Origin: Bacillota bacterium
GTDB taxonomy: Bacteria > Bacillota > SHA-98 > UBA4971
DNA: 64,000 nt
Direction of reading: 5' to 3'
Assembly: GCA_012842395.1 (NCBI GenBank)
Contig: DUSX01000018.1
Coordinates: forward strand, 62,116-126,115
Shown here: positions 10,313 through 21,934 of the stretch, piece by piece
How positions within the stretch are numbered: position 1 is the stretch's first letter
Layout: each line of letters opens with the position of its first letter
The notes under the pieces: generated by a model
Told to the model about the DNA's origin: nothing
The model's database searches: none
What the model saw: only the letters and a program-made list of their open reading frames with translations
Program-made: the position numbers and the translations under genes

Positions 10313-11611
10313 TCAAAGCTGCTGCAGCGTGACCTTGCCTGCCATACCACCTCCCGGTACAGGGACTACGATTCCGGCGCAAGGCATGACGATCGAGTCA
10401 TAGTCCTTACCATGCTTGGACTCAACTAGGTGGAGGGCCTCTTCAAGGCTCTTCGCAGGGGTGAAGAAAAGCTTTCTTGCAAGAACGTCGTCAAGGGACG
10501 ATACGAGGACAACCTCTTTATCTCGCAAGACCCGGGCTAGGCTGTAGGCCTTATGCCCGCCCAACACGAACCCGGCAGCGAAGCGACGGAAGATATCATC
10601 GAGGCTGCGTGCCTCTGTCATCCAACTCTCGAACGTCGGCTCGCCGCATCCCTCGGGGCACTCGGCCAAGAGCACGATAGTGCCGCCCTTTCTCACGACT
10701 CGGTCGGCGTTGTCGATGGCTTTCTGTGCCTGGTACACGTTGATGTCTTTGGGGAATCCTCCCGCGCTCGCGATGGCCACGTCGACTTCGCGGGCGACCG
10801 GCGCTACGACGTAATCCGAACATATCTTCACGCCTTCGAGCCACGCTTTCTCAACGTCCCCTGCCACCACGGCCGCCACCTTGCCCACCCCGTCGGTGAC
10901 CGTGTTCACGATGAAATGGACGCCGGCTTTACGCGCGGCTTCGACCATCTCGATGTGGACTGGGTTTCCATCGAGGTTGCATACAGCCGCAGCCTCGGAA
11001 GTCATGAGCGAGTGATTGTGAGAGATGGTGGCCCGGCCCGACACGCCTGGCAAGATCGCCTTGCGTCCTCCGGAGAACCCGGCGAAGTAGTGAGGGGAGA
11101 TGACGCCGGTCGCTATGACGAAGTCCGCCTCAAGGACGATGCGGTTGACGCGCAGTTCCGTCCCGAAGGGGAGAGTGCCCAAGGGGACCAGGTTCTCCTC
11201 GTCGTCGCAGTCATGATTCACGACGCGATACGTCTCGCAGATCTCGCGTCCCAACGTCAGCCGCATTTCTTCAGGGGTCATTCCTCTATGGATCCCGGTG
11301 GCGACGACGAGCGTCACGTCCTCGTCGGCTATTCCCGCTTCCCGGAGCTCGCTGAGGAGAGGGGGCAGGATGTCGGTATAAGGTGTGGGTCTTGTGATGT
11401 CGTTCACGATGATCACGACAGTCCTTGCGCGCCTGCGCTTTACCTCGTGGAGCAGGCTGTCGGTCCCTGTCGGATGTCTGAGTCTCGAAAGGACTTCGCT
11501 GCGCAGGTCGGCGAGGGGCTTCGCCTCTCGACCGGTCAACACCTGCGGATTCACGAGCACGCCTATGTCCAGCGGAACACAGGACCTCCCGTACTTCAAC
11601 TGAACGACCAC
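10313..11611 (-). CDS. LarA-family nickel-pincer-cofactor-dependent 2-hydroxyacid racemase/epimerase homolog
   Basis: 432 aa. HYFAGFSGGRKAILPG (catalytic Lys in GGRK), ATGIHRGMTPEE and the conserved His-containing N-domain (DUF2088-like). Confidence 0.7.
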   Translation of the reverse strand: MVVQLKYGRSCVPLDIGVLVNPQVLTGREAKPLADLRSEVLSRLRHPTGTDSLLHEVKRRRARTVVIIVNDITRPTPYTDILPPLLSELREAGIADEDVTLVVATGIHRGMTPEEMRLTLGREICETYRVVNHDCDDEENLVPLGTLPFGTELRVNRIVLEADFVIATGVISPHYFAGFSGGRKAILPGVSGRATISHNHSLMTSEAAAVCNLDGNPVHIEMVEAARKAGVHFIVNTVTDGVGKVAAVVAGDVEKAWLEGVKICSDYVVAPVAREVDVAIASAGGFPKDINVYQAQKAIDNADRVVRKGGTIVLLAECPEGCGEPTFESWMTEARSLDDIFRRFAAGFVLGGHKAYSLARVLRDKEVVLVSSLDDVLARKLFFTPAKSLEEALHLVESKHGKDYDSIVMPCAGIVVPVPGGGMAGKVTLQQL

Positions 11612-11817
11612 GAAGGCACCCCCTAACCTTCAGCAGGCCCGGGACTGGAAGCGCGGCGCCGCGCCTGAGCCGAGCTGTACCACAGCGTCACACTGCCTGC
11701 GACGCACAGCGCGGAGCCCCCGACGCACGACGCCCGGCACGGCGAGCGTCCTGACCCAAATCGCCCGAACCAGTGACCTCGGGCCGTGTTCTGCGCGAGT
11801 TCCGTACTAGGACAAAA

Positions 11818-11832
11818 GCAAACTGCGTGCCA
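11818..11832 (-). promoter_or_regulatory. Sigma-54 (RpoN) -24/-12 promoter driving the LarA-homolog/tctCAB/dmlA-like operon
   Basis: Minus-strand sequence TGGCAC-GCAGT-TTGC is an exact match to TGGCAC-N5-TTGC. It lies about 205 bp upstream of the LarA-homolog start, and a sigma-54 activator is encoded immediately upstream. Confidence 0.65.
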
Positions 11833-12021
11833 ACGCCGTCCAAACCGTCTTGCGCTTGGACGGGAGGAAGGGAAGCCACCCGTGGCATGGGCTTGCCAGG
11901 CACGATGATGTAGCACATCAGCAACGGAGCTGTTACATTGGCGCAACACATGGAGCGGCTCAAGCCCAGGCAGCTCTTCTGCCACCTGCCTATGGGGCGA
12001 GACGCAACGCTGGTTTTCGAT

Positions 12022-14070
12022 TCATGGTTCGCGGCCGCCTTCACGCTGCGCGTCCCGCCTTGCCGCTGTGTGTTCGCTCCTGAGCTTGCGCCAAAGCGTG
12101 GTCCGGTTGATTCCGAGGCGACGGGCGGCTTCGCTCTTGTTGCCGCCGCATGCACTGACCGCACGGGCTATGCTCTCGCGTTCCACAGCTTTGATGAGGC
12201 TTTCGAGGTCGCGCCCGGTGCCGCTGTCGCGGGGACTGGCCAGAGTGCCAGCGGCTGAGGATGTGTCACCGTCGATCTCGGTAATGCGGGGCCATCCTTC
12301 CGACCCGGGCGTGTCACCTATGGCATCGAGCACGTCGTTGTTTGTGACACACCCGCTCTCCGACAAGACCAGGCACTTCTCGACGGTGTTTTTGAGCTCC
12401 CTCACGTTGCCATGCCAGGGATGAGCAAGAAGGACCGCCAACGCATCACTCGTGAAGCCCTGGAAGGGCGTACCGAGCTTTGCAGATAGTGTCCTCGCAA
12501 ACGTCTCAGCCAGAAGCGGTATGTCCTCAGGCCGCTCCCGCAGCGGGGGCAGCGCGAGCTTGAGGACGTCAAGCCGGTAGTACAGGTCTGCCTGAAACAG
12601 GCCCTCTGCAACGAGTTTACGGAGGTCTTTGTTAGACGCGGCGATGACACGGACGTCAATGGGGATTGTGCGGTCATCCCCCAGCCGCATCACCTCCTTT
12701 TCTTGGAGGACCCTGAGAAGGCGGGCCTGGAGACGCAGGGGCATGCCCGCGATCTCATCCAGGAAGATCGTTCCGTGGTGGGCCAGCTCAAAGAGGCCTT
12801 GTTTGCCTTCCCGCTTAGCCCCGGTGAAGGCACCTTCAACGTAACCGAACAGCTCGCTCTCGAGCAAGCTTTCCGGTAATGCGGCGCAGTTGACCGCGAC
12901 GAACGGCCCATCGCGCCTAGCACTCGCATTGTGAATGCTTTGGGCGAAAAGCTCTTTCCCGGTTCCTGTCTCTCCGAGGATGAGGATCGTGGAGTCCACG
13001 GCAGCAAAGCGTCTAGCCTTGGTGATGGCAGCCTGGATCGCGCGGCTGGTGCCTACGATGTCGCCGAACGTGAACCTCGCCACGTGGCCGCGGGCATAGA
13101 GCCTCTTGCGCAGGTCTTTTTCCAGCGCTTGCAACCTGCTGACATCCTGGAAGGTCGCGATGGCGCCCGCACATGAGCCGCTCACCACGATAGGCACACG
13201 GGTCACATTAACGAGAGTGCCGTTTATCCGACACACCTCGGGCGATGCGGGCTGGGAGGAAGGATTCGACGAGGACTCGCGGCGCCAATCCCGGCCCGAC
13301 GAGGCGGCTGCGAGGATCGCGGCGAAACCGGCTTCAGGCAACACCTCGTCTACGTGACGCCCTACGACGTCGGCTGCGGCGCGGCCTGTGAGCCGTTGGG
13401 CGGCTTCGTTGAAAACAGTGATGTGCCCTGCATCGTCTACAGCGATGATGCCGTCGGACACGTTGTCTATGATGAGTTTGAACTGCTCCGCCCGTGCCGT
13501 CTCGTGTTTCTTGACCCATAGCACGCGCGAAGCCTCGTCGATGGCTTGCCTGACAGCTTCCGGCCCAGATTCTATCAGCACGGCTCTGGCGCCGTGCTTC
13601 TCGGCGGTTCGAACAGTTATCACTCCGCCTATCAGGACATCAACTCCATCTCGCAGGGCTTCACGGACTGTCGTGTCGGCGTCGCGGGCGCGCTCGAGGA
13701 CGATCTCCTTTATCTCCACATCCATCGACTCGCTCAGCGTGCTCGCCCCGAGCACCATGTTCTCAAAGCCCACTATGGCAATGCGGCGCCCGAAGAGCCT
13801 TGCCTTCGCAACGGCGCGCACCACGTCGTAAGCTGTCACGCGGATCTCCACCACCGGCAGGCCGACGTCTTTGGCGTCCTGGAGCACGAGGGCCGTCCCC
13901 CCGCGACTGATGAGGACCTGAACCCCCTCCCTCTTCAGGCGCCGCGCGAGCGCCGGTGCCTCGCCCAGAAGGGCGCGCTCCACTCTGACTGGCTTTCGGA
14001 CGGTTCTCGAGACTTCGCAGGCCACCGCAGCGAGGTTGTCGTACGGTGCTATGAGCGCGATATCAGGCAT
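12022..14070 (-). CDS. Sigma-54-dependent transcriptional activator with PrpR-like N-terminal sensory domain, PAS domain, AAA+ sigma-54 interaction domain and Fis-type HTH
   Basis: [15 protein letters not shown] Walker A and ESELFGY (GAFTGA-region equivalent). C-terminal [21 protein letters not shown]-terminus resembles the propionate-regulator PrpR_N domain. Confidence 0.85.
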
Positions 14071-14496
14071 GCCTTGTCACCCCTCTGTTCGTCCTGGGAG
14101 GGGTTTCGCTTTGGGCAGGTGGCTTTCCTTCCGAAGTACGGTGCCACAGGTCTTCGCCTCCTACCTCGAGGGCGACAGGAGCGCCGGGGCTGCCCGTGAT
14201 TGCGCGGGACGCGGCGAGCTCGGCCGTCTCGCACGCCAAATCCTCGCCGAATCCGGACGAGGCGCGCCGCACAAACCGCAGGAAGTGCGCCGCCCCGGCC
14301 CCGGAGGGCAAGGCTGATGGCCTTAGGCGACACGTGCGTGCTGAAGGGCAGCGCGACGTTGTGACGATCACTTCGGTGCCGATCCCTGCCTCAACGGCGG
14401 CAGCATCATCGGGACGAAGCTGCGGCAGAGCCGTCGTCGCACGCGGACACCACCCCGGTCCTTGACGCTGCCAAAATATGGTGATATGATTGAGGC

Positions 14497-15165
14497 ATGG
14501 CAGTGGGGCCCAGAGATGGCGATATATGGTTACTGCATGGCTCCACAGGCGACTATCGCAGAGGAACACGGCTAAATGAACAAAAGAGGAAGCTAAACGT
14601 TCGCGAAGGCCGCGGCGGGTTTCCGCTTGGGTCCTCTGGCATGACTCCGTTGGGGGGGACGGGAATGGGCAGGTTGAAGGTGCTTGTGCTTGACGACGGA
14701 ACGGTGGATCGCTTGGTCGATCTGGACTCGGCCGTGTCCGTTGGTGACGTCGAGGTCGTCGGCACCTTGAGGATCACGCCTTGTTCAGCCTTGGCAGCCA
14801 CAACTGCTCCAGCAGGCGCGGGCGTCTCAGGCGACGCCGTCGGTTTTGGCGCGGTGCTGCGTGAATCACCGGCTGTCTTGTCGAAGGACTCGTGCGCGTC
14901 AAGCGGGGGGGCCGGAGGTGATGCGTGGGCTGCTCAAGGCGCGCGGATGGAGCCTGTTGAACGAGAGGCGCCAGTGTACCTTACCAGGACCGAGCTGGAT
15001 GTCCTGAGGCTCCTCGCCAAGGGCTTGAGGAACAAAGACATCGCGCAGGAACTGTACATCAGCGTCAACACCGTGAAAACGCACGTGGCCAGCATATTCA
15101 GGAAACTCCGGGTGAAAAACCGGTCCGAGGCCGTGAGATACGTGTGGAGCCGTGGCGTGCGTTGA
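14497..15165 (+). CDS. LuxR-family HTH transcriptional regulator, with no recognisable receiver or autoinducer domain
   Basis: C-terminal LTRTELDVLRLLAKGLRNKDIAQELYISVNTVKTHVASIFRKL. The N-terminal 120 aa are low-complexity. A more likely start is ATG 14665 (MGRLKVLVLDD), which follows a G-rich RBS. Confidence 0.6.
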   Translation: MAVGPRDGDIWLLHGSTGDYRRGTRLNEQKRKLNVREGRGGFPLGSSGMTPLGGTGMGRLKVLVLDDGTVDRLVDLDSAVSVGDVEVVGTLRITPCSALAATTAPAGAGVSGDAVGFGAVLRESPAVLSKDSCASSGGAGGDAWAAQGARMEPVEREAPVYLTRTELDVLRLLAKGLRNKDIAQELYISVNTVKTHVASIFRKLRVKNRSEAVRYVWSRGVR

Positions 15166-15635
15166 GCCGAGGTTCACCCGTTGGAGCCACCACAAGTCCC
15201 CCGTTCGGGCAATAGCGCGCCCGGCCCGCGATTGATAGACTGGGGTTGCCAGAGGCGACCTGGGCCGGCTCAGGCCAGCGCATCCAGTCTCCCGCAGCGC
15301 TAGGTGGGGAAAGGGGGTGGACTCGGTGTACGGAAGGCTTGCTGGCAGAAAGATCAGGATGGACCTTGCGATCGACGGGTATTGCTTCACTTTCAGACTC
15401 TGGGGTCATCGGGTCACGATAGGCTAAGCCCGGCCGCGGGGAGCATGGGCGGGCGGCGAGACAACGGGTTGCTGCCTCGCCGCCTGCCCCCGCTGTTTGT
15501 GTCGACGATGGCAGGTCCTTCCCGGCCTGAACCCAGGAACAGGGCAAAGCACGTCGCCCAGGGCGTCGTCGCCCTGCTCAGGACCGGCAAGGCCCGGCTG
15601 CCGATGGACGTCGCCAGTCGCTGACACACCCTCGC

Positions 15636-17000
15636 ATGGGCCGACGGTTGAAGGAGGGGGCCTCGACGCGGATGGATGAGAAGGTCTACACGATCTCCCC
15701 TGAAGTGCGAGTGTCCGAGGTTGAGGGCCAGTATGTGCTGGTGAATCCCAAAAACATCGAGTGGGTCAAGTTGACTCGTGAGGCGTATGAGCTCGCGGAA
15801 AACCCTGGGAACCTGGTAGCGAGTGACCTTGTCAAGCGCGAATGCGTCCTGCGGGGAGCTGACCCCGGAGAGGTGGAGGGGCTTCTCCGTTACCTCCTGG
15901 AGGCGGGCTTCATCGTGGAGGCTGGAGAAGCGGTGGGTCTCGGTCGAGTGTACTTCAACGTCACTGACCGATGCAACCTCTCTTGTCCAGCATGTTACTT
16001 CGCGGCCGACGACATGCCTCGTGCCGGCGACCTCTCGACCGAAGATGCGCTATCCCTGCTGGATGTGCTTGCGGCCGAGAAACCGAGGTGTCTTGTGATA
16101 AGCGGGGGAGAGCCGTTTCTCCGTGACGACATAGGCGACATATTGGCGTCTGCCGCGGGCAGATTTGACGACGTCGTGCTCCTCACCAACGGGTGTCTGG
16201 TCGGCGAGGCCGAGGCTAAGCTCGTGAAGGACTGCGGAGCCAGGGTGCAAGTGAGCGTCGAGTCAGACGACCCCATTCTCCACGAACTGGCACGAGGTTG
16301 CGGCAGTTTCGACGCGGTGATGCGGGGCATCCGTGCATTGCAGTCCGCGGGCGTGAGCGGGATCGAGATCGTGCCCACCCTCACCAGGAGGAACCTCGGA
16401 CGGCTGCAAGGCATCGTAAAGCTTGCCAGGGATCTCGGGGTCGGCTACCACTTCAGCCTTTTCATGCCAGTAGGTCGAGGCGCATGTCACGCAGCCGATC
16501 TTTCGATAGCGCCTCGCGATCTCCTTGCGTGCTTCGCCTCGTTCGTGGAGTCGACCCTTCAGGACCGGGAGGGCTTGTCAGAGGCTCTCGACGCTGATCT
16601 TGCGATAGACCTGCGCGTGAAAGCCGGGTGTGGTGCCGGATACAAGATCCTCAGCGTCGGCCCGGACGGCGCCGTGTATCCGTGCCCGTTGATGCACCGT
16701 CCCGAAATGCTCCTTGGAAGGCTGCCGGGTGGCTCGCTTTCGCGGATGCGCCGCGTGGGCAGGGGCATTGTGCCCCAGGTAAATGAGATCCCCAGTTGCT
16801 TCCGGTGTAAGGTGGCGTACTTCTGCGGGGGCGGCTGCCGAGCGCACGCGCTCGCTCAGGGAGGCAACCTCTTCGCCGTCGACCCGTATTGCGAGTTCTA
16901 TCGAAGGGCCTACATGGCCTTGCTGACGGGTTGGCGCGACGGCCGGACCATTGTTGAGAATGCCAAGTCGGTTGCGATGGCTCTTGCAGATGGGTTGTGA
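15636..17000 (+). CDS. Radical SAM/SPASM-domain peptide-modifying enzyme with N-terminal PqqD-like RiPP recognition element
   Basis: CNLSCPACY (CxxxCxxC). C-terminal Cys-rich SPASM region (CPLMH...CFRCKVAYFCGGGCRAHA). N-terminal approximately 85 aa is PqqD-like (VSEVEGQYVLVNPKNIEWVKL...LLEAGFIV). Alternative start ATG 15672. Confidence 0.85.
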   Translation: MGRRLKEGASTRMDEKVYTISPEVRVSEVEGQYVLVNPKNIEWVKLTREAYELAENPGNLVASDLVKRECVLRGADPGEVEGLLRYLLEAGFIVEAGEAVGLGRVYFNVTDRCNLSCPACYFAADDMPRAGDLSTEDALSLLDVLAAEKPRCLVISGGEPFLRDDIGDILASAAGRFDDVVLLTNGCLVGEAEAKLVKDCGARVQVSVESDDPILHELARGCGSFDAVMRGIRALQSAGVSGIEIVPTLTRRNLGRLQGIVKLARDLGVGYHFSLFMPVGRGACHAADLSIAPRDLLACFASFVESTLQDREGLSEALDADLAIDLRVKAGCGAGYKILSVGPDGAVYPCPLMHRPEMLLGRLPGGSLSRMRRVGRGIVPQVNEIPSCFRCKVAYFCGGGCRAHALAQGGNLFAVDPYCEFYRRAYMALLTGWRDGRTIVENAKSVAMALADGL

Positions 17001-17788
17001 AAGGCATGACGGGCATCGTGTATTCGTCGCTGGCTTTCAGTTTCGTCATCAGGGTCCTTGCGGACATCAAGAGGTCGTCGAAGGAAAGCGTGAGTCTCAA
17101 GAGTGACCGGACTATCGACGGCATGCCGCTTTTGGGAACCGCCCTGCTTACCGTCGGTTGGGTGGCGTACGGCAGAGACCCGCTGCTGGCGACCGGCCTT
17201 TGCGTCAGGAGGCTCGCGGCATGCCCTTGGTGGCATATGTGTGCTCTATGTGTGACGGGCTTTGCGATGAGTCGGCTGGTTCAGGCCTACCTCTTCCGGT
17301 CGACCGTGAGGGCCCTCGTAGAAAGTGGTGCCATCAACCCCGGCGGCGCGTACCTGGCTCTCGCCAATAGCAGCCCCGCGAGCGTCGCGCTTGTGGGGGC
17401 GGCCATGACGTTCTCGCAGACCTTTGTGGAGGAGTTTGCGTTCCGCGGCCTTGCGCTGCCCGGTGCCGCGGCGATGGTCGAGAACCTTGGTGCTCCCCCC
17501 GAGTGCGCGCTAGTGGCCGGGGTTGCATTGTCGTCCCTAGCCTTCGGCCTCTTGCACTTCGTCCCGATGAAGGTGGCGACCCGCGGCAAGAGCGCGCTCC
17601 TCTCGTGGTACGCCCTGGTAGTTCCGTCGAGTCTGGCCGTCGGTTTCTGCGTTCTAAACCAAATGGCGGGTTCGCTGTGGCCCGGGTGGCTCGTCCACTG
17701 GTGGATGAATTACGCGGGCCTTGTGTGGAGCAAAGCCGAGCGACGCTGGGAACGGGCGATCGCGGCGCCAGGGCGCAGCGAGGCGTGA
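16997..17788 (+). CDS. CPBP-family (CAAX protease / bacteriocin-processing) intramembrane metalloprotease
   Basis: Motifs EEFAFRG (EExxxR), FGLLHF (FxxxH) and HWWMNY (HxxxN) in a polytopic protein. The start overlaps the radical-SAM stop (GTGA). Confidence 0.75.
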   Translation: MKGMTGIVYSSLAFSFVIRVLADIKRSSKESVSLKSDRTIDGMPLLGTALLTVGWVAYGRDPLLATGLCVRRLAACPWWHMCALCVTGFAMSRLVQAYLFRSTVRALVESGAINPGGAYLALANSSPASVALVGAAMTFSQTFVEEFAFRGLALPGAAAMVENLGAPPECALVAGVALSSLAFGLLHFVPMKVATRGKSALLSWYALVVPSSLAVGFCVLNQMAGSLWPGWLVHWWMNYAGLVWSKAERRWERAIAAPGRSEA

Positions 17789-17839
17789 GGAGGCGTTGAT
17801 GCAGGCATGCCGCCACGGCCAAGTCACGGGGGGATGTTT

Positions 17840-18109
17840 ATGGAGCATTGGTCCATGGAGACGAGACTCGCTGACGCATGCCTCGCGCTGGGGCACATAT
17901 GCACTGTGGAAGCCAAATGGGCCGAAGATCCCGAGTTGAGGGCGGTCATGTTGGGCCATGCGCTTGGGTTCCTGAATGCGGCCTGGCTCTTTCTCCCATC
18001 TTGCGCGTCCAGAAGGTCGGTTGGGATGGAAACCACAGCCGAGCCTGTGGCAGGAATCGTGTGCCGGCTGACGAAGGATAAAAAGGCTGATACGTACGAC
18101 GGCTCATGA
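17840..18109 (+). CDS. Small Cys-containing protein (88-90 aa) downstream of the CPBP protease, a candidate RiPP precursor or accessory protein
   Basis: Strong GC3 codon bias, consistent with real coding in this genome. G-run RBS at 17828-17833. Four Cys. No homology recognised. Confidence 0.4.
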   Translation: MEHWSMETRLADACLALGHICTVEAKWAEDPELRAVMLGHALGFLNAAWLFLPSCASRRSVGMETTAEPVAGIVCRLTKDKKADTYDGS

Positions 18110-18203
18110 CGCATGGCGCAGACCTGTCCGCTCGGGGGCGCGGCAGCCGCTCTGAGGGTCGGATCCACGCGCGAGACGGGCGCGACTTGGTCGCGCCGGG
18201 TGC

Positions 18204-20987
18204 ATGAGCCGACGGCCACAGGGCGTGGACGGAGGAAATGCGGTGATCCGGCGGTACTTCTGGTTCGCACTGATCGCGGTGGTTGTGGCGTTCGCCGCGT
18301 CGTTTCGCGGGATGGCCACGTTCATCACTGATGTTATGTGGTTCCGGGAATTGGGATACCTGCAAGCGCTTTGGGTGCCAATTCTGTCACGGGCGATGGT
18401 CGGCTTCATCGTCGCTGCGGTCTTCTCCATCTTCTCTTACGCTAACCTCAAGGTGGCAGGAAGGAGTCTCGGAAGGCTTTCATTGGGATTGGGTTTTCGG
18501 TCCTTCGATATCCCGATGCGGCTCACAACACAGAGGTTGAGGGCTGTTCTCCTGGTCGGTAGCATCCTCATCGGGATGCTCGCGGGCTTGGAAACCTCCT
18601 CGCATTGGATGACAGTTCAGCAGTTCCTGCACCGAGCGCCGGGAGGGGTGAAGGACCCCTTGTTTGGCCTAGACGTGGGCTACTACATGTTCGGCCTGCC
18701 GTTTTGGCGACTCGTCTACTCTCTCCTCATGACCCTTGTGCTTGTCACCACGGCGCTCGTGGCGGCGATCTATATTGTGACGCGATCCATCGGCCTGAGG
18801 GGCACCCACGTAACCGGGACCATGACGGCCAAACGCCACGTCGCTGGCCTGGTTGCGCTCTGCCTTCTGCTGAGAGCTTGGGGCTACCGGCTCATGGCGT
18901 TGGCGCTTGTATACTCCGACCGAGGCGTCGTCTTCGGCGCTGGCTACACGGACGTTCATGCGACGCTGCCTGCCCTCAAGATTCTCTCTATGATAGCGAT
19001 CGTTGCGGCGGCTTCGGTGCTTGCGAGCCCCTTCATGCGTGGGGAGAAGGTCGTTCTTGCTACCGTGGGGATGCTTGTCGTGGCATCCTTTGTTTTGGGC
19101 ACGGTTTACCCCGCCATTATCCAGAAGCTGTCAGTGGAGCCCAGCGAGCTATCGAGAGAGCGGCCCTACATAAGGTATAACATCGAGGCGACCAGGCAGG
19201 CGTTCGGCTTGGACGACATAGATGTGCGGCCCCTCGATGTCCGCAACGATCTGACGCTAGAGAGACTTTTGACCGCTTACCAGGATACTGTCAACAACAT
19301 CAGGCTCTGGGATTGGCGCCCCCTCTCTCAGACCCTAAACCAACTTCAGGAGATCAGGGTATACTATAGATTCAATGACGTCGATATCGACAGATACACG
19401 GTAGCCGGCAAGACTCGGCAGATGGCGTTGTCTGCGCGCGAGCTGTCCCTGGCCGAACTGCCGGCGCAGGCGAGGACATGGGTGAACGAACACCTGGTGT
19501 ACACCCATGGCTATGGGCTGGTCATGAGCGACGTAACGCGGGTTTCTGCTGAAGGGCTTCCAAGCTTCACGATAAGGGACATTCCGCTGCGGACCGACGA
19601 GGGATTTGACGTGGTGCGTCCCGAGATCTACTACGGGGAGTGCACTGACGAGTACGTGGTGGTCGGGACGTCCGCTCGGGAATTCGATTACCCCGCAGGG
19701 GAATCTGGCACTTACACGACCTACGAAGGGCGCGGCGGCGTCCGGTTGTCGTCGTTCTGGAGAAGGCTTCTGTTCGCCGCGCGATTCGGGAGCATGCAAT
19801 TCCTGATGTCTTCGGACATGAGCAGAGATAGCCAGGTATTATACGTTCGGAACATCCGCGACCGCGTACAGGCCATAGCGCCCTTTCTCAGGTATGACAG
19901 GGACCCGTACCTGGTGCTTGCGGACAGGAGACTCTTCTGGATGTGGGATGCGTATGTCGTGAGCGATCGTTATCCGTATTCTCAACCCATCGAGGATGGA
20001 ATCAACTACATTCGAAACTCAGTCAAGGTCGTTGTTGACGCATACAGCGGTGAAGTGACGTTTTACACCCCCGACCCTGACGAGCCCATCATAAAGACCC
20101 TGTGCGGTATCTTCCCGGGGATGTTCGTGCCGATGGACGAAATGCCCGTGTCTCTGAAGGCCCACGTGCGTTACCCCGAAGACCTGTTCGTGATCCAGGC
20201 CCGCGTGCTCGGCAAGTATCATACGACGGAGCCGGATGCTCTTTATAAACAGGAGGATTTCTGGGAATTCCCAGCAGAGGTGTACGGTGGCGAGCGCCAG
20301 ACCATGCAGCCATACTACGTGTTCATGCGTATGCCAGGTGATGAGCGGGCCGAGTACGTGCTCACCGTGCCGTTCACTCCGTCAGGCAGAGACAACATGA
20401 TCGCATGGCTTGCCGCCAGGAACGATTTCCCCGGCTACGGGCAGCTTGTGCTCTACAGCTTCCCTAAAGACCGCCTTGTATACGGGCCCATGCAGGTTGA
20501 ATCGAGGATCGATCAGGATCCGGCCATATCGCAGGCACTCACCCTGTGGAGCCAGCGGGGGTCGAAGGTTGTGCGGGGAAACCTCCTTGCTATCCCGATA
20601 GAGAATTCGATCCTCTACGTGGAGCCGCTGTATCTTCTTGCGGAGCGGAGCGATCTGCCGGAATTGAAGAGGGTGGTGGTCTCCTTCGGCGACGCCGTGG
20701 CCATGGACACGACCCTGGAGGGCGCCCTGGCCGCCGTGTTTGGTGCCGGTACAGCGGTTCCAAGGCGCAGTGCGGCCGCGGAGCCCGGAAACGGTCTTGG
20801 AGTGCCGGCGCCGGCTTCCCCGCAGGACAGCGACACCGGGGTCCTGTCTGAGCTAGTTGGTCGTGCTCTTCAGGTGTATGAGGACGCCAACAGACGGCTC
20901 CGTGACGGTGACTTCGCCGGCTTCGGAGAGCGCCTCGACGAGCTGGGCGTTTTGCTGCGAGAACTCGAAAGAAGAGGGGCGAAGTGA
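18204..20987 (+). CDS. UPF0182-family large membrane protein
   Basis: 927 aa. N-terminal TM region with FITDVMWFRELGY. Size and architecture typical of UPF0182 (COG1615). Confidence 0.65.
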   Translation: MSRRPQGVDGGNAVIRRYFWFALIAVVVAFAASFRGMATFITDVMWFRELGYLQALWVPILSRAMVGFIVAAVFSIFSYANLKVAGRSLGRLSLGLGFRSFDIPMRLTTQRLRAVLLVGSILIGMLAGLETSSHWMTVQQFLHRAPGGVKDPLFGLDVGYYMFGLPFWRLVYSLLMTLVLVTTALVAAIYIVTRSIGLRGTHVTGTMTAKRHVAGLVALCLLLRAWGYRLMALALVYSDRGVVFGAGYTDVHATLPALKILSMIAIVAAASVLASPFMRGEKVVLATVGMLVVASFVLGTVYPAIIQKLSVEPSELSRERPYIRYNIEATRQAFGLDDIDVRPLDVRNDLTLERLLTAYQDTVNNIRLWDWRPLSQTLNQLQEIRVYYRFNDVDIDRYTVAGKTRQMALSARELSLAELPAQARTWVNEHLVYTHGYGLVMSDVTRVSAEGLPSFTIRDIPLRTDEGFDVVRPEIYYGECTDEYVVVGTSAREFDYPAGESGTYTTYEGRGGVRLSSFWRRLLFAARFGSMQFLMSSDMSRDSQVLYVRNIRDRVQAIAPFLRYDRDPYLVLADRRLFWMWDAYVVSDRYPYSQPIEDGINYIRNSVKVVVDAYSGEVTFYTPDPDEPIIKTLCGIFPGMFVPMDEMPVSLKAHVRYPEDLFVIQARVLGKYHTTEPDALYKQEDFWEFPAEVYGGERQTMQPYYVFMRMPGDERAEYVLTVPFTPSGRDNMIAWLAARNDFPGYGQLVLYSFPKDRLVYGPMQVESRIDQDPAISQALTLWSQRGSKVVRGNLLAIPIENSILYVEPLYLLAERSDLPELKRVVVSFGDAVAMDTTLEGALAAVFGAGTAVPRRSAAAEPGNGLGVPAPASPQDSDTGVLSELVGRALQVYEDANRRLRDGDFAGFGERLDELGVLLRELERRGAK

Positions 20988-21934
20988 GCTTGGTGGTGCC
21001 AAAGATAGAGATGCGGCGGGATAACGCGGTCATCTCAGGCATTTCACCATTTGACCTCAAGGAAACCCTGGAATCCGGACAAGCGTTCCGCTGGGACCTT
21101 GAGGACGGCGTGTTCACCGGCGTCGTGCGCGGGAGAGTCATTCGAGCTGCACAGGAGGGTGATTCACTCGTCCTCATCAAGCCTGGTTCAGAAGAGGTCA
21201 TTCACCTTGCGACCGATTACTTTTCGCTCGATGTGGACCAGGCGGACATTGAGGAGCGGCTGCGCAGCATGGACCCCACGCTCGACTCGGCGGTAAGGTC
21301 GTTCACCGGCCTTCGCTTGCTGCGACAGGAACCATGGGAATGCCTGGTGTCATTCATCCTATCTGCCAGGAACGCCATTCCCCTCATCCGCCGAGCGGTC
21401 GAGCGTATAGCGAGAGCTTACGGCGATCCCATCTTTCAGGAGAATGACGACGGCCTTCCGACGCACGGTGGCCGCGGATCCGGGCAAACATCGTATTACA
21501 GCTTTCCGACCCCGGGTCGGCTTGCATCGGCGGACGTCCTCGACCTTGTGAGGTGCGGCGCGGGTTTCAGGTCGCAGTATGTGAAAGCCGCGGCAGAGAG
21601 AGTAGCGTCCGGTGACATCGATCTTCAAGCTCTACGAAGCCTCGGATACGGAGGCGCAAAAGAGAGACTGATGAGCCTGCGAGGTGTGGGCGAGAAGGTG
21701 GCCGACTGCGTCCTTCTGTTCTCGCTCGGCTTCTATGAGGCATTTCCGATTGACGTTTGGATGACAAGGGTGATGCGATATGTCTATTTCGGGGGAAGCA
21801 AAGTCTCGGCCGCGACCATAACGCAGTTTGCTCGGGAGAGGTTCGGCGAGCTCGCAGGCTATGCCCAACAGTACTTGTTTCATTACGCTCGTAGGAAGCT
21901 TGCGTCCGAACTCCGTGGGCTAGACCTGGACTGA
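20984..21934 (+). CDS. ogg: 8-oxoguanine DNA glycosylase/AP lyase (Ogg, HhH-GPD superfamily)
   Basis: TLESGQAFRW N-terminal motif. HhH-GPD segment LMSLRGVGEKVADCVLLFSLG...FPIDVWM with a catalytic Lys/Asp arrangement. Confidence 0.7.
   Translation: MSLVVPKIEMRRDNAVISGISPFDLKETLESGQAFRWDLEDGVFTGVVRGRVIRAAQEGDSLVLIKPGSEEVIHLATDYFSLDVDQADIEERLRSMDPTLDSAVRSFTGLRLLRQEPWECLVSFILSARNAIPLIRRAVERIARAYGDPIFQENDDGLPTHGGRGSGQTSYYSFPTPGRLASADVLDLVRCGAGFRSQYVKAAAERVASGDIDLQALRSLGYGGAKERLMSLRGVGEKVADCVLLFSLGFYEAFPIDVWMTRVMRYVYFGGSKVSAATITQFARERFGELAGYAQQYLFHYARRKLASELRGLDLD

What the first reader, a model, noticed from the sequence alone, without database searches (positions are those of the whole stretch)
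14497..18109. RiPP-like locus: LuxR-type regulator, RRE-containing radical-SAM/SPASM maturase, CPBP protease, small downstream proteins
The radical-SAM enzyme has CxxxCxxC, a Cys-rich SPASM C-terminus and an N-terminal PqqD-like RiPP recognition element. It is translationally coupled (GTGA overlap) to a CPBP/CAAX-type intramembrane protease (EExxxR, FxxxH, HxxxN). A LuxR-family HTH regulator lacking a receiver domain sits immediately upstream. This combination is the signature of a ribosomally synthesised, post-translationally modified peptide system; the CPBP may act in leader removal or immunity. No precursor gene resembles a known class (SCIFF, sactipeptide, streptide or PQQ). The product class is therefore undetermined and may be new.
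Basis: partly seen in the sequence, partly recalled or inferred. Interest (0 to 1): 0.75.

Follow-up and report, generated by a model that had tools for sequence, protein, structure and literature searches.

The report
Radical-SAM peptide cassette with overlooked precursor

Summary
The RiPP (ribosomally made, modified peptide) reading is largely right, but the parts list needs correcting.

- **Precursor.** It is not downstream. It is an unannotated 33-codon gene at 15326-15427 (MYGRLAGRKIRMDLAIDGYCFTFRLWGHRVTIG) in the gap between the LuxR gene and the radical-SAM (rSAM) gene.
- **Evidence it is a real gene.** It occurs at the same place in all 26 cassette loci examined. It is always 33 codons, has a Shine-Dalgarno site and shows a coding substitution pattern. 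Cys20, Phe23, Trp26, Gly27, Thr31 and Gly33 are invariant.
- **Core cassette.** LuxR-type regulator, peptide, rSAM and CPBP protease travel together through three different genomic contexts. Some relatives add an ABC exporter, giving the gene order of the Bacillus skfA-B-C-E-F operon.
- **Not part of it.** The downstream 100-aa ORF travels with the UPF0182 gene.
- **Enzyme.** It has a peptide-recognition (RRE) domain, an rSAM core and a seven-Cys SPASM domain. Its closest solved relatives are the thioether-forming CteB and SkfB, but it reaches no curated family cut-off.
- **Regulation.** An operator-like palindrome lies exactly 22 nt upstream of a -10 box in all 26 loci. A strong hairpin follows the peptide gene.

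No named family or paper matches the peptide. The chemistry is undetermined; a thioether at Cys20 is my best guess.

The parts
14665..15165 (+). LuxR/GerE-type HTH transcription regulator, 166 aa (the ORF is open from 14497). The N-terminal part is only a remnant of a receiver domain.
   Evidence: PF00196 at 74.2 bits, with no Response_reg hit. Homologue alignments and public gene calls start at Met57. Relative L015 still has a partial Response_reg domain.
15197..15213 (+). Operator-like palindrome TCCCCCGTTCGGGCAAT, a candidate binding site for the LuxR-type regulator, centred at about -43 to -44.
   Evidence: The pattern TCNYCCNTTYRGGNAAT occurs once in the 64-kb window (0 expected) and once, at the same place, in 13 related cassette loci (plus L081 and L082, which are copies of this locus). 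Allowing up to 3 mismatches, it is found in all 26 loci, always 22 nt before the -10 hexamer. That the regulator binds it is inferred.
15233..15241 (+). Extended -10 promoter element TGATAGACT, with no recognisable -35 box.
   Evidence: TGnTAnnnT, or TAGACT without the TG, lies at a constant 22-nt spacing from the palindrome in all 26 loci. The consensus promoter scan did not call it because the -35 box is missing.
15259..15274 (+). 16-bp palindrome CCTGGGCCGGCTCAGG in the predicted 5' leader; function unknown.
   Evidence: Found by the inverted-repeat search. It is nearly invariant across clades whose proteins are only about 45% identical. No compensatory base pairs were found.
15326..15427 (+). 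Precursor peptide gene: 33 codons plus stop, GTG start, Shine-Dalgarno GGGGGTG 6 nt upstream. Product: MYGRLAGRKIRMDLAIDGYCFTFRLWGHRVTIG.
   Evidence: Present at the same place in 26 of 26 loci and always 33 codons. Third-position entropy is 1.28 against 0.49 at second positions, median dN/dS is about 0.2, the stop codon varies between TAA, TAG and TGA, and the SD is conserved. G7, C20, F23, W26, G27, T31 and G33 are invariant. Some public sources call it as a 33-36 aa hypothetical protein.
15442..15494 (+). GC-rich hairpin 15 nt after the peptide stop codon, followed by a weak U-tract. Likely an attenuator or stabiliser that sets the ratio of peptide to enzyme transcripts.
   Evidence: Arms of 22 nt, 82% complementary. 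Folding energy is -42.1 kcal/mol, z = -2.76. Most related loci have a strong hairpin in the same interval with a different sequence. The consensus terminator scan did not call it.
15672..17000 (+). Radical-SAM/SPASM peptide maturase with a fused N-terminal RRE, 442 aa (the ORF is open from 15636).
   Evidence: PF04055 hit. CxxxCxxC and seven SPASM Cys are invariant in 25 homologues. The AF2 model has pLDDT 84.7 and an RRE topology at residues 5-83. Best solved relatives are CteB, SkfB, SuiB, anSME, TigE and PqqE. No NCBIfam family reaches its cut-off.
17006..17788 (+). CPBP (Rce1-like) glutamic intramembrane protease, 260 aa (the ORF is open from GTG 16997, which overlaps the rSAM stop).
   Evidence: PF02517 at 42.2 bits. 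The three catalytic motifs are invariant in 19 loci. It always lies immediately after the rSAM gene. Public gene calls give 260 aa.

Best explanation
This is a four-gene RiPP cassette: regulator, precursor peptide, rSAM maturase and CPBP protease.

Proposed sequence of events:
1. The LuxR-type regulator binds the palindrome centred near -43/-44 and activates a promoter that has no -35 box.
2. The transcript encodes the 33-residue peptide, then a strong hairpin, then the rSAM and CPBP genes. The peptide message is therefore made in excess over the enzyme message.
3. The fused RRE of the rSAM enzyme binds the basic, strand-forming N-terminal half of the peptide (about residues 1-18).
4. The rSAM/SPASM domains install a radical-mediated crosslink in the aromatic C-terminal half (C20-x2-F23-x2-W26-G27-x3-T31-I-G33). 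My best guess is one thioether from the invariant Cys20 to a carbon of another residue, as in sactipeptides or ranthipeptides.
5. The membrane CPBP protease, whose gene is tightly coupled to the rSAM gene, trims the modified peptide (removing the leader) at the membrane. Release is aided by an ABC-2 exporter in the relatives that have one.

Status of the steps:
- Shown here: the gene set, its conservation as a unit, the coding status of the peptide gene, the domain architecture of the enzyme, the intact catalytic motifs of the protease, and the conserved promoter, operator and hairpin geometry.
- Inferred: that the peptide is the substrate, the type of crosslink, the role of the protease, the binding of the regulator, and the biological role of the product (antimicrobial or signal).
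For: - **A conserved unit.** LuxR, peptide, rSAM and CPBP recur in 24-26 loci in three genomic contexts. These contexts are: between the PrpR-like gene and UPF0182; with an added ABC pair; and between an amidohydrolase gene and obg.
- **A real, constrained peptide gene.** Codon-position entropy, dN/dS of about 0.2, a conserved SD and a fixed length all support coding.
- **A peptide-modifying enzyme.** It has RRE, rSAM and a seven-Cys SPASM domain.
- **Thioether-forming relatives.** Its closest solved relatives by sequence profile and by fold are CteB (E = 2.7e-33; Foldseek 4.4e-19) and SkfB (E = 1.1e-31). The best full-length NCBIfam match is the StsB sactipeptide maturase.
- **A possible open iron site.** The stretch 'CGAG-x12-G-x4-C' has two Cys, as in CteB, and lacks the extra Cys that anSME has there. 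This is compatible with an open auxiliary-cluster site that could bind a substrate Cys.
- **An intact protease.** The CPBP catalytic motifs are invariant.
- **A known operon layout.** The order peptide, rSAM, CPBP, ABC ATPase, ABC-2 permease in L007-L015 and L020 matches skfA-B-C-E-F (PMC8172795).
- **Conserved regulatory geometry.** The palindrome and -10 box are 22 nt apart in 26 of 26 loci. A hairpin follows the peptide gene.
Against: - No experiment or structural model links the peptide to the enzyme.
- The enzyme is only 15-20% identical to any characterised maturase and is far below every curated family cut-off, so the reaction type cannot be read from homology.
- A nearly invariant extra Cys (C272) could complete the auxiliary cluster, which would weaken the open-site argument.
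- The whole 33-mer is conserved, with no obviously variable core, and there is no recognisable leader cleavage motif.
- The window's cassette has no exporter, and no homologue of the relatives' ABC pair was found in its 64 kb.
- CPBP proteins next to bacteriocin genes can act as immunity proteins rather than processing proteases (own knowledge).
- The hairpin lacks a good U-tract, and the terminator scan did not call it.
Confidence: 0.7

Rival explanations
1. Same cassette, different chemistry. The rSAM enzyme makes a carbon-carbon or carbon-oxygen crosslink on the invariant aromatic residues (Phe23, Trp26), as in streptide, darobactin or the three-residue cyclophanes. Cys20 would then serve only as a recognition or cluster-binding residue, or form a disulfide.
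For: Phe23, Trp26 and Gly27 are as invariant as Cys20. SuiB (Lys-Trp crosslink), WgkB and DynA appear among the structural and NCBIfam matches. The enzyme is far from all characterised families, so the reaction type is open.
Against: The top sequence and structure matches are thioether-forming enzymes: CteB, SkfB and StsB. Known partner residues of such crosslinks (Lys or Arg at fixed spacing from Trp) are not conserved in the family. A single invariant Cys in a peptide next to a CteB-like SPASM enzyme is most simply the thioether donor.
Confidence: 0.2
2. The small ORF is a regulatory leader (ribosome-arrest or attenuation) peptide rather than the substrate. Its translation would control formation of the downstream hairpin and so the expression of the rSAM and CPBP genes. 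The real substrate of the enzyme would be encoded elsewhere.
For: Conservation rises towards the C-terminus and the stop position is fixed. A strong hairpin starts 15 nt after the stop codon. The 5' leader is unusually conserved in sequence.
Against: The enzyme carries a fused RRE, which implies a peptide substrate. No other conserved small ORF accompanies it in any of the three genomic contexts. The N-terminal half is also constrained: G7 is invariant and positions 8-11 are basic. Precursor gene, hairpin, then enzyme genes is a standard RiPP operon layout (own knowledge). The hairpin has no good U-tract.
Confidence: 0.06
3. The peptide is the precursor of a peptide-derived redox cofactor, in the manner of mycofactocin or PQQ, not of a secreted natural product.
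For: The MftC model matches across the rSAM and SPASM domains (E = 4e-31) and PqqE is among the hits. The peptide is short, and its 'IDG[FY]C' recalls the 'IDGMCGVY' tail of MftA (resemblance from memory only).
Against: Scores are far below the cut-offs: MftC 108 against 265, PqqE 64 against 381. No MftB/D/E/F or PqqB/C/D/F homologues and no partner dehydrogenases are conserved next to the cassette. A dedicated regulator, a membrane protease and, in some relatives, an ABC-2 exporter point to an exported product.
Confidence: 0.03
4. One reading: the rSAM is an anaerobic sulfatase-maturating enzyme or a tetrapyrrole/cofactor enzyme (AhbD or NirJ type) acting on a protein or small molecule encoded elsewhere. 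The neighbouring genes would then be incidental.
For: The highest-scoring NCBIfam model is AhbD heme b synthase (128 bits), and anSME is among the PDB matches.
Against: The AhbD and NirJ matches cover only the rSAM core (residues 94-292) and are far below the cut-off (128 against 500). The enzyme has an RRE that those enzymes lack. Its partnership with the peptide, CPBP and LuxR genes is kept in three unrelated genomic contexts with no sulfatase or heme genes.
Confidence: 0.01

Closest known systems
Sporulation killing factor (SKF) operon skfABCEFGH of Bacillus subtilis
   Same: Same operon logic and gene order: short precursor, then an RRE-containing rSAM enzyme, then a membrane CAAX/CPBP-type putative protease, then an ABC ATPase and permease. 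The ABC pair is present in relatives L007-L015 and L020 (PMC8172795). SkfB is the second-best solved sequence match (E = 1.1e-31). SKF carries a single Cys-to-C-alpha thioether.
   Different: According to PMC8172795, SkfB ends in a twitch domain with one auxiliary [2Fe-2S] cluster. The profile alignment to SkfB stops at position 361, before the CxxCx5Cx3C block that is invariant here. The precursor here is 33 aa with one Cys, against 55 aa for SkfA with a 26-aa cyclic core and an extra disulfide. There are no SkfG or SkfH equivalents. The window's copy has no ABC transporter. The CPBP gave no SkfC-type NCBIfam match.
CteB, the SCIFF/ranthipeptide maturase (thermocellin), PDB 5WGG/5WHY
   Same: Best solved match by profile (E = 2.7e-33, query 57-419) and by fold (Foldseek 4.4e-19). 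It has the same three-part architecture of RRE, rSAM and SPASM. It also has the same 'CG-x-G ... YPC' stretch with only two Cys where anSME has three.
   Different: Only 17-18% identical. The precursor has one Cys rather than the six-Cys SCIFF motif. No SCIFF-maturase model appears among the top 25 NCBIfam matches. SCIFF loci are not known to carry a coupled CPBP or a LuxR regulator (own knowledge).
StsB family sactipeptide maturase (streptosactin), NCBIfam NF045574
   Same: Best NCBIfam match that spans both the rSAM and SPASM domains (residues 86-401, E = 2.4e-34).
   Different: The score is 119 bits against a cut-off of 625, so it is not a member.
Mycofactocin system (MftA/MftB/MftC)
   Same: A short peptide modified by an rSAM/SPASM enzyme. 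The MftC model matches residues 95-409 (E = 4e-31).
   Different: The score is 108 bits against a cut-off of 265. The RRE is fused to the enzyme rather than being a separate MftB. There are no MftD/E/F genes nearby. The peptide ends in TIG, not GVY.
CPBP-dependent peptide maturation, e.g. MroQ processing of AgrD in Staphylococcus (own knowledge, not tested here)
   Same: A CPBP-family intramembrane protease with intact EExxxR, FxxxH and HxxxN motifs is paired with a short peptide under a dedicated regulator.
   Different: No AgrB/AgrC/AgrA equivalents. The modification enzyme is an rSAM enzyme. The regulator is a LuxR-type HTH with only a receiver remnant.

Membership tests
rSAM/SPASM RiPP maturase with fused RRE (general kind) | CxxxCxxC radical-SAM cluster motif | tested here: met
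   C101, C105 and C108 are invariant in 25 homologues. PF04055 at 79.8 bits against a cut-off of 29.5.
rSAM/SPASM RiPP maturase with fused RRE (general kind) | C-terminal SPASM seven-Cys motif (Cx9-15Gx4C ... CxxCx5Cx3C ... C) | tested here: met
   C320-x12-G-x4-C338, C376-x2-C379-x5-C385-x3-C389 and C407 are all invariant. They align to the SPASM Cys of CteB, PqqE and anSME. PF13186 is precomputed for many homologues, although Pfam did not call it on the window protein itself.
rSAM/SPASM RiPP maturase with fused RRE (general kind) | N-terminal PqqD-like RiPP recognition element | tested here: met
   The AF2 model shows strands 5-8, 13-17, 20-25 and 30-34, then helices 36-43, 50-61 and 65-77. 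Full-length fold matches are to the RRE-bearing CteB, SuiB and TigE. The TigE profile alignment starts at residue 7. There is no direct PF05402 hit on the window protein; distant homologues carry it.
rSAM/SPASM RiPP maturase with fused RRE (general kind) | Adjacent, co-conserved precursor peptide gene | tested here: met
   A 33-codon gene lies at the same place in 26 of 26 loci and shows coding-type constraint.
rSAM/SPASM RiPP maturase with fused RRE (general kind) | The enzyme actually modifies the peptide | not testable with these tools
   This needs co-expression or in vitro assay with mass spectrometry.
SKF (SkfA/SkfB/SkfC) system | SkfB-type enzyme with a twitch domain and a single auxiliary cluster | tested here: not met
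   The enzyme has the full SPASM Cys set. The alignment to SkfB ends before the CxxCx5Cx3C block. The SkfB twitch domain is described in PMC8172795.
SKF (SkfA/SkfB/SkfC) system | Gene order: precursor, rSAM, CAAX/CPBP protease, ABC ATPase, permease | tested here: inconclusive
   Met in relatives L007-L015 and L020. In the window the ABC pair is absent.
SCIFF / ranthipeptide (CteA/CteB) | Six-Cys-in-45 precursor and an equivalog-level match to the SCIFF maturase | tested here: not met
   The precursor has one Cys. No NCBIfam model reaches its cut-off.
Mycofactocin | MftC equivalog score of 265 bits or more, with MftA/B/D/E/F neighbours | tested here: not met
   108 bits. The neighbours are LuxR, CPBP and sometimes an ABC pair.
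PQQ (PqqE) | PqqE equivalog score of 381 bits or more, with a PqqA Glu-x3-Tyr peptide | tested here: not met
   64 bits. The peptide has no Glu-x3-Tyr motif.
Anaerobic sulfatase-maturating enzyme / AhbD-NirJ tetrapyrrole enzymes | Family-level score and no RRE | tested here: not met
   AhbD scores 128 bits against a cut-off of 500, over the core only. An RRE is present.
CPBP / Rce1-like glutamic intramembrane protease (PF02517) | Pfam score above cut-off and the motifs EExxxR, FxxxH and HxxxN | tested here: met
   42.2 bits against 22.4. All three motifs are invariant in 19 loci. Proteolytic activity was not tested.
NarL/LuxR-type response regulator | GerE HTH plus an intact receiver domain with a phospho-acceptor Asp | tested here: not met
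   The GerE HTH is present (74.2 bits) but there is no Response_reg hit in the window protein. Only relative L015 has a partial receiver, profile positions 1-76 of 111.

The most novel reading that the evidence does not exclude
The cassette makes a new class of modified peptide. The 33-residue precursor family (C-x2-F-x2-WG-x3-TIG at the C-terminus) would receive a crosslink not yet described for rSAM enzymes. A dedicated, co-translated CPBP intramembrane protease would mature it. The product might feed back on the receiver-less LuxR-type regulator as a peptide signal in anaerobic-digester Bacillota.
Probability: 0.25. Interest if true: 0.7.

Novelty: new variant of a known kind. Interest (0 to 1): 0.5.

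Why it matters
- **A testable system.** The work turns a vague "RiPP-like locus" into a defined system: a named precursor sequence, an enzyme, a protease, and a promoter and operator.
- **An undescribed family.** The precursor family has no Pfam or NCBIfam model, no name in any source database and no mention in the searched literature. It is rare: 12 hits below E = 0.001, about 10 of them family members, among 1.84 billion representative proteins.
- **Uncultured hosts.** It seems confined to uncultured Bacillota from biogas and anaerobic digesters, a community whose peptide chemistry is almost unexplored.
- **A simple substrate.** A single-Cys, 33-residue substrate with a compact RRE-rSAM-SPASM enzyme would be a convenient minimal model for radical peptide crosslinking.
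- **A chance to test the CPBP role.** The invariant pairing with a catalytically intact CPBP protease could settle whether CPBP proteins in peptide operons, such as SkfC, are maturation proteases.
- **A limit on the claim.** Thousands of uncharacterised rSAM-RiPP families exist and the operon layout has a precedent in skf. This is therefore an incremental discovery, not a surprising one.

Tried and rejected
- **Downstream 100-aa ORF (17807-18109) as precursor: rejected.** It has no Pfam or NCBIfam hit. It stays next to UPF0182 when an ABC pair separates it from the CPBP, and it is absent where the cassette lies elsewhere.
- **Other small ORFs in the 15166-15671 gap: rejected.** The ORFs at 15181-15303, 15246-15422, 15304-15624 and 15497-15679 are alternative-frame readings of conserved DNA, or are not conserved.
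- **A known RNA family in 14000-18300: none** at E of 1 or less.
- **A structured RNA in the 5' leader: no support.** RNAalifold found no compensatory pairs.
- **Family assignment of the peptide: none.** There were no Pfam or NCBIfam hits even at E of 10 or less.
- **Homologue search with the 33-mer.** It worked after padding with X residues.
- **Peptide sequence strings in 8 million papers: no hit**.
- **Literature on rSAM with CPBP or CAAX in RiPPs: nothing relevant** beyond the skf operon.
- **CPBP against PDB sequences: no match**.
- **Repeat proteins P0141 and P0142 from the profile search: spurious.** P0142, on inspection, is a repetitive sequence; P0141 (2813 aa, seven matched stretches) was not retrieved and is judged by analogy.
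- **Consensus scans.** They did not call the promoter, which has no -35 box, or the hairpin, which has a weak U-tract. Both rest on comparative evidence instead.

Full report
**1. What is in the window**

- 14497-15165 encodes a protein whose C-terminus is a GerE/LuxR HTH (PF00196, 74.2 bits), with no receiver-domain hit.
- 15636-17000 is a radical-SAM (rSAM) protein (PF04055, 79.8 bits).
- 16997-17788 is an Rce1-like CPBP protein (PF02517, 42.2 bits).
- 17807-18109 has no family hit.

The flanking genes are:
- on the minus strand upstream, a PrpR-like sigma-54 activator (12022-14070) and a LarA-family racemase (10313-11611);
- downstream, a UPF0182 membrane protein (18204-20987) and an OGG-type glycosylase (20984-21934).

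CxxxCxxC and seven C-terminal Cys are invariant in an alignment of 25 full-length homologues. EE-x2-FR, FG-x2-H and H-x3-N are invariant in 19 CPBP homologues.

**2. The association is conserved**

A scan of one genome per species found 80 loci encoding relatives of the rSAM protein. I ran tblastn with each window protein against those loci.

- The order LuxR, a 0.4-0.65 kb gap, rSAM, CPBP recurs in at least 24 loci (L001-L016, L018-L020, L022-L026, L029, L033), down to about 30% rSAM identity.
- Equally distant rSAM relatives from Collinsella, Vallitalea and other lineages lack these partners.
- All cassette-bearing records are metagenome-assembled genomes labelled Bacillota, Firmicutes or Clostridia. 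The one exception is a contig labelled Betaproteobacteria that is fully syntenic and is probably mis-binned.
- The window's own protein occurs on long contigs from biogas-fermenter metagenomes.

**3.

I listed ORFs in the LuxR-rSAM gap of every locus. Each has one small ORF ending in ...C-x2-F-x2-WG-x3-T-I-G-stop. A pattern search over all loci and both strands finds exactly one copy per cassette locus, 26 including the window. The window's copy is at 15326-15427.

The evidence that it is a translated gene comes:
- It is always 33 codons long.
- A GGAGGTG or GGGGGTG Shine-Dalgarno sequence lies 6 nt upstream.
- The start codon is ATG or GTG. L012 has ATC there, with an in-frame GTG three codons upstream.
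- The stop codon varies between TAA, TAG and TGA at a fixed position.
- Nucleotide entropy is 0.71, 0.49 and 1.28 at codon positions 1, 2 and 3.
- The median pairwise dN/dS is about 0.2.

Invariant residues are Gly7, Cys20, Phe23, Trp26, Gly27, Thr31 and Gly33. The N-terminal half is basic with alternating hydrophobic residues. The C-terminal half is aromatic.

The peptide is not known under any name:
- It matches no Pfam or NCBIfam model.
- In the 5.8-billion-protein collection only 18 clusters match. None carries a meaningful name; three carry a source label (two 'hypothetical protein', one evidently spurious DUF1289/YdhL call).
- A profile search of 1.84 billion representatives found only about ten family clusters.
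- No paper in the library contains the sequence.
- Public gene calls for this very locus leave it unannotated.

**4. What belongs to the cassette**

The 100-aa ORF downstream of the CPBP gene goes with UPF0182, not with the cassette.
- In L007-L013 and L020 it stays directly upstream of UPF0182, while a 1.6-2 kb insertion separates it from the CPBP gene.
- In L019 and L022-L026 the cassette sits between an amidohydrolase gene and obg, and neither this ORF nor UPF0182 is present.

The insertion in L007-L015 and L020 encodes an ABC ATPase and an ABC-2 permease. The core is therefore LuxR, peptide, rSAM and CPBP, with an optional exporter. No homologue of that exporter pair was found in the window's 64 kb.

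**5. The enzyme**

An AlphaFold2 model built from the 25-sequence alignment is confident (pLDDT 84.7, pTM 0.83).
- Residues 5-83 form four short strands and three helices. This is the topology of a PqqD-like RiPP recognition element (RRE).
- A partial TIM barrel and a helical Cys-rich C-terminal domain follow.

The closest solved relatives, by Foldseek and by a profile search of PDB sequences, are:
- CteB first (5WGG/5WHY; E = 4.4e-19 and 2.7e-33);
- then SkfB, SuiB, anSME, TigE and PqqE.

No NCBIfam model comes near its cut-off.
- AhbD scores highest at 128 bits against a cut-off of 500, over the core only.
- StsB sactipeptide maturase scores 119 against 625.
- MftC scores 108 against 265.

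In the HMMER alignments, the stretch between the first two SPASM Cys reads CGAG-x12-G-x4-C. That gives two Cys, as in CteB, where anSME has three. In CteB the corresponding auxiliary cluster has an open site that binds the substrate Cys (my own knowledge of that structure). A nearly invariant Cys272 upstream leaves this point open.

**6. Regulatory anatomy**

*Operator and promoter.* Upstream of the peptide gene, all clades share an imperfect palindrome, TCNYCCNTTYRGGNAAT.
- It occurs once in the window, at 15197-15213, where chance predicts zero.
- It occurs once, at the same place, in 13 related cassette loci, and in L081 and L082, which are copies of this locus.
- Allowing up to three mismatches, it is found in all 26 loci.
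- In every one it ends exactly 22 nt before a -10 hexamer. Eighteen loci have the extended form TGnTAnnnT, and the other eight have TAGACT alone.
- That puts the palindrome centre near -43/-44, with no -35 box. This is the geometry of an activator-dependent promoter such as the lux box (own knowledge).
- I infer that the adjacent LuxR-type protein binds there.

*Regulator.* It retains only a remnant of a receiver domain. Relative L015 still has a partial one.

*Hairpin.* Fifteen nucleotides after the peptide stop codon lies a strong hairpin (15442-15494; -42.1 kcal/mol; z = -2.76) followed by UGUUUGUGU. Most related loci have a strong hairpin in the same interval with a different sequence.

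*Leader.* The predicted 5' leader contains a further 16-bp palindrome (15259-15274). It is almost invariant across clades, but no compensatory base changes were found. I cannot explain it.

**7. How it most likely works**

The regulator switches on a transcript that yields abundant peptide message. Read-through past the hairpin yields less rSAM and CPBP message. The RRE holds the N-terminal half of the peptide while the rSAM/SPASM domains crosslink the C-terminal half. The CPBP protease, whose gene starts within a few nucleotides of the rSAM stop codon in every locus, then trims the product at the membrane.

I favour a single thioether from Cys20, for three reasons:
- the nearest characterised enzymes (CteB, SkfB, StsB) all make thioethers;
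- the peptide has exactly one invariant Cys;
- the auxiliary-cluster region resembles that of CteB.

This is inference. A crosslink on Phe23 or Trp26 is a serious alternative.

The operon order in the ABC-containing relatives matches skfA-B-C-E-F, where SkfC is the putative protease and SkfE/F handle export and resistance (PMC8172795).

**8. Rivals**

- *Regulatory leader or arrest peptide.* This would explain the conservation weighted towards the C-terminus and the hairpin. However, it leaves an RRE-bearing enzyme without a substrate, and it does not explain the constrained N-terminal half.
- *Cofactor precursor (mycofactocin or PQQ type).* This lacks the required partner genes and fails the family cut-offs.
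- *Sulfatase-maturase or AhbD-type enzyme.* This reading is contradicted by the RRE, by the scores and by the conserved neighbourhood.

**9. Novelty and verdict**

The system works like known rSAM/SPASM RiPP pathways, and its layout resembles skf. It fails the membership tests for SKF, SCIFF, mycofactocin, PQQ, anSME and AhbD. Its precursor family is undescribed. I rate it a new variant of a known kind, of moderate interest (0.5).

It is a clean, experimentally tractable new peptide family from an under-explored habitat. It is not surprising in kind, and its chemistry and biological role remain to be determined.

Noticed in passing
window 15242-15325, especially 15259-15274: The predicted 5' leader of the peptide gene (GCCAGAGGCGACCTGrGCCGGCyCAGGC, which includes a 16-bp palindrome) is more conserved in nucleotide sequence than the neighbouring proteins are in amino-acid sequence. 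It shows no compensatory base-pair changes. It may be a second protein-binding site.
   Followed up: partly
window 17807-18109 (public gene call 17840-18109, 89 aa) and 18204-20987: A small protein with no family hit sits directly upstream of the UPF0182 membrane-protein gene in nearly every related locus that has UPF0182 (no match in L015), whatever lies further upstream. It looks like a conserved partner of UPF0182.
   Followed up: partly
L007 4968-6538; L008-L015 and L020, equivalent positions: An ABC ATPase and an ABC-2 permease follow the CPBP gene in one part of the family. They are absent from the window's clade (L001-L006) and from the distant clade. The exporter has therefore been gained or lost within the family.
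   Followed up: yes
L001 (JBLNCC010000124.1): This contig is labelled 'Betaproteobacteria bacterium'. Over the whole stretch compared it is syntenic with, and 66-90% identical in protein to, the window and the Bacillota loci. It is probably a mis-binned or mislabelled contig.
   Followed up: no
L012 7749-7859: The peptide gene has ATC where all other loci have ATG or GTG. An in-frame GTG lies three codons upstream, inside the Shine-Dalgarno sequence. This is either an unusual start codon or a slightly longer peptide.
   Followed up: no
window 10313-14070, minus strand: A LarA-family racemase scores above the NCBIfam cut-off for the nickel-dependent malate racemase LarAH6 family (518 bits against 500). 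It lies next to a PrpR-N/PAS/sigma-54 activator, divergent from the cassette. This pair is conserved next to the cassette only in the window's clade.
   Followed up: no
window 14462-14490: This is the only consensus sigma-70 promoter-like site in 14000-18300 (TTGACG, 17 nt, TATGAT, with an upstream TG). It lies about 175 nt upstream of the likely LuxR start at 14665. That would make the first 56 codons of the long ORF a 5' UTR.
   Followed up: no
L015 441-1052 and L014 2058-2858: In two relatives the cassette's regulator still has a recognisable or partial receiver domain. In the other clades, including the window, only a short 'KVLVLDDG ... EVVG' remnant survives. The family shows decay from a response regulator towards a receiver-less LuxR-type protein.
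   Followed up: partly
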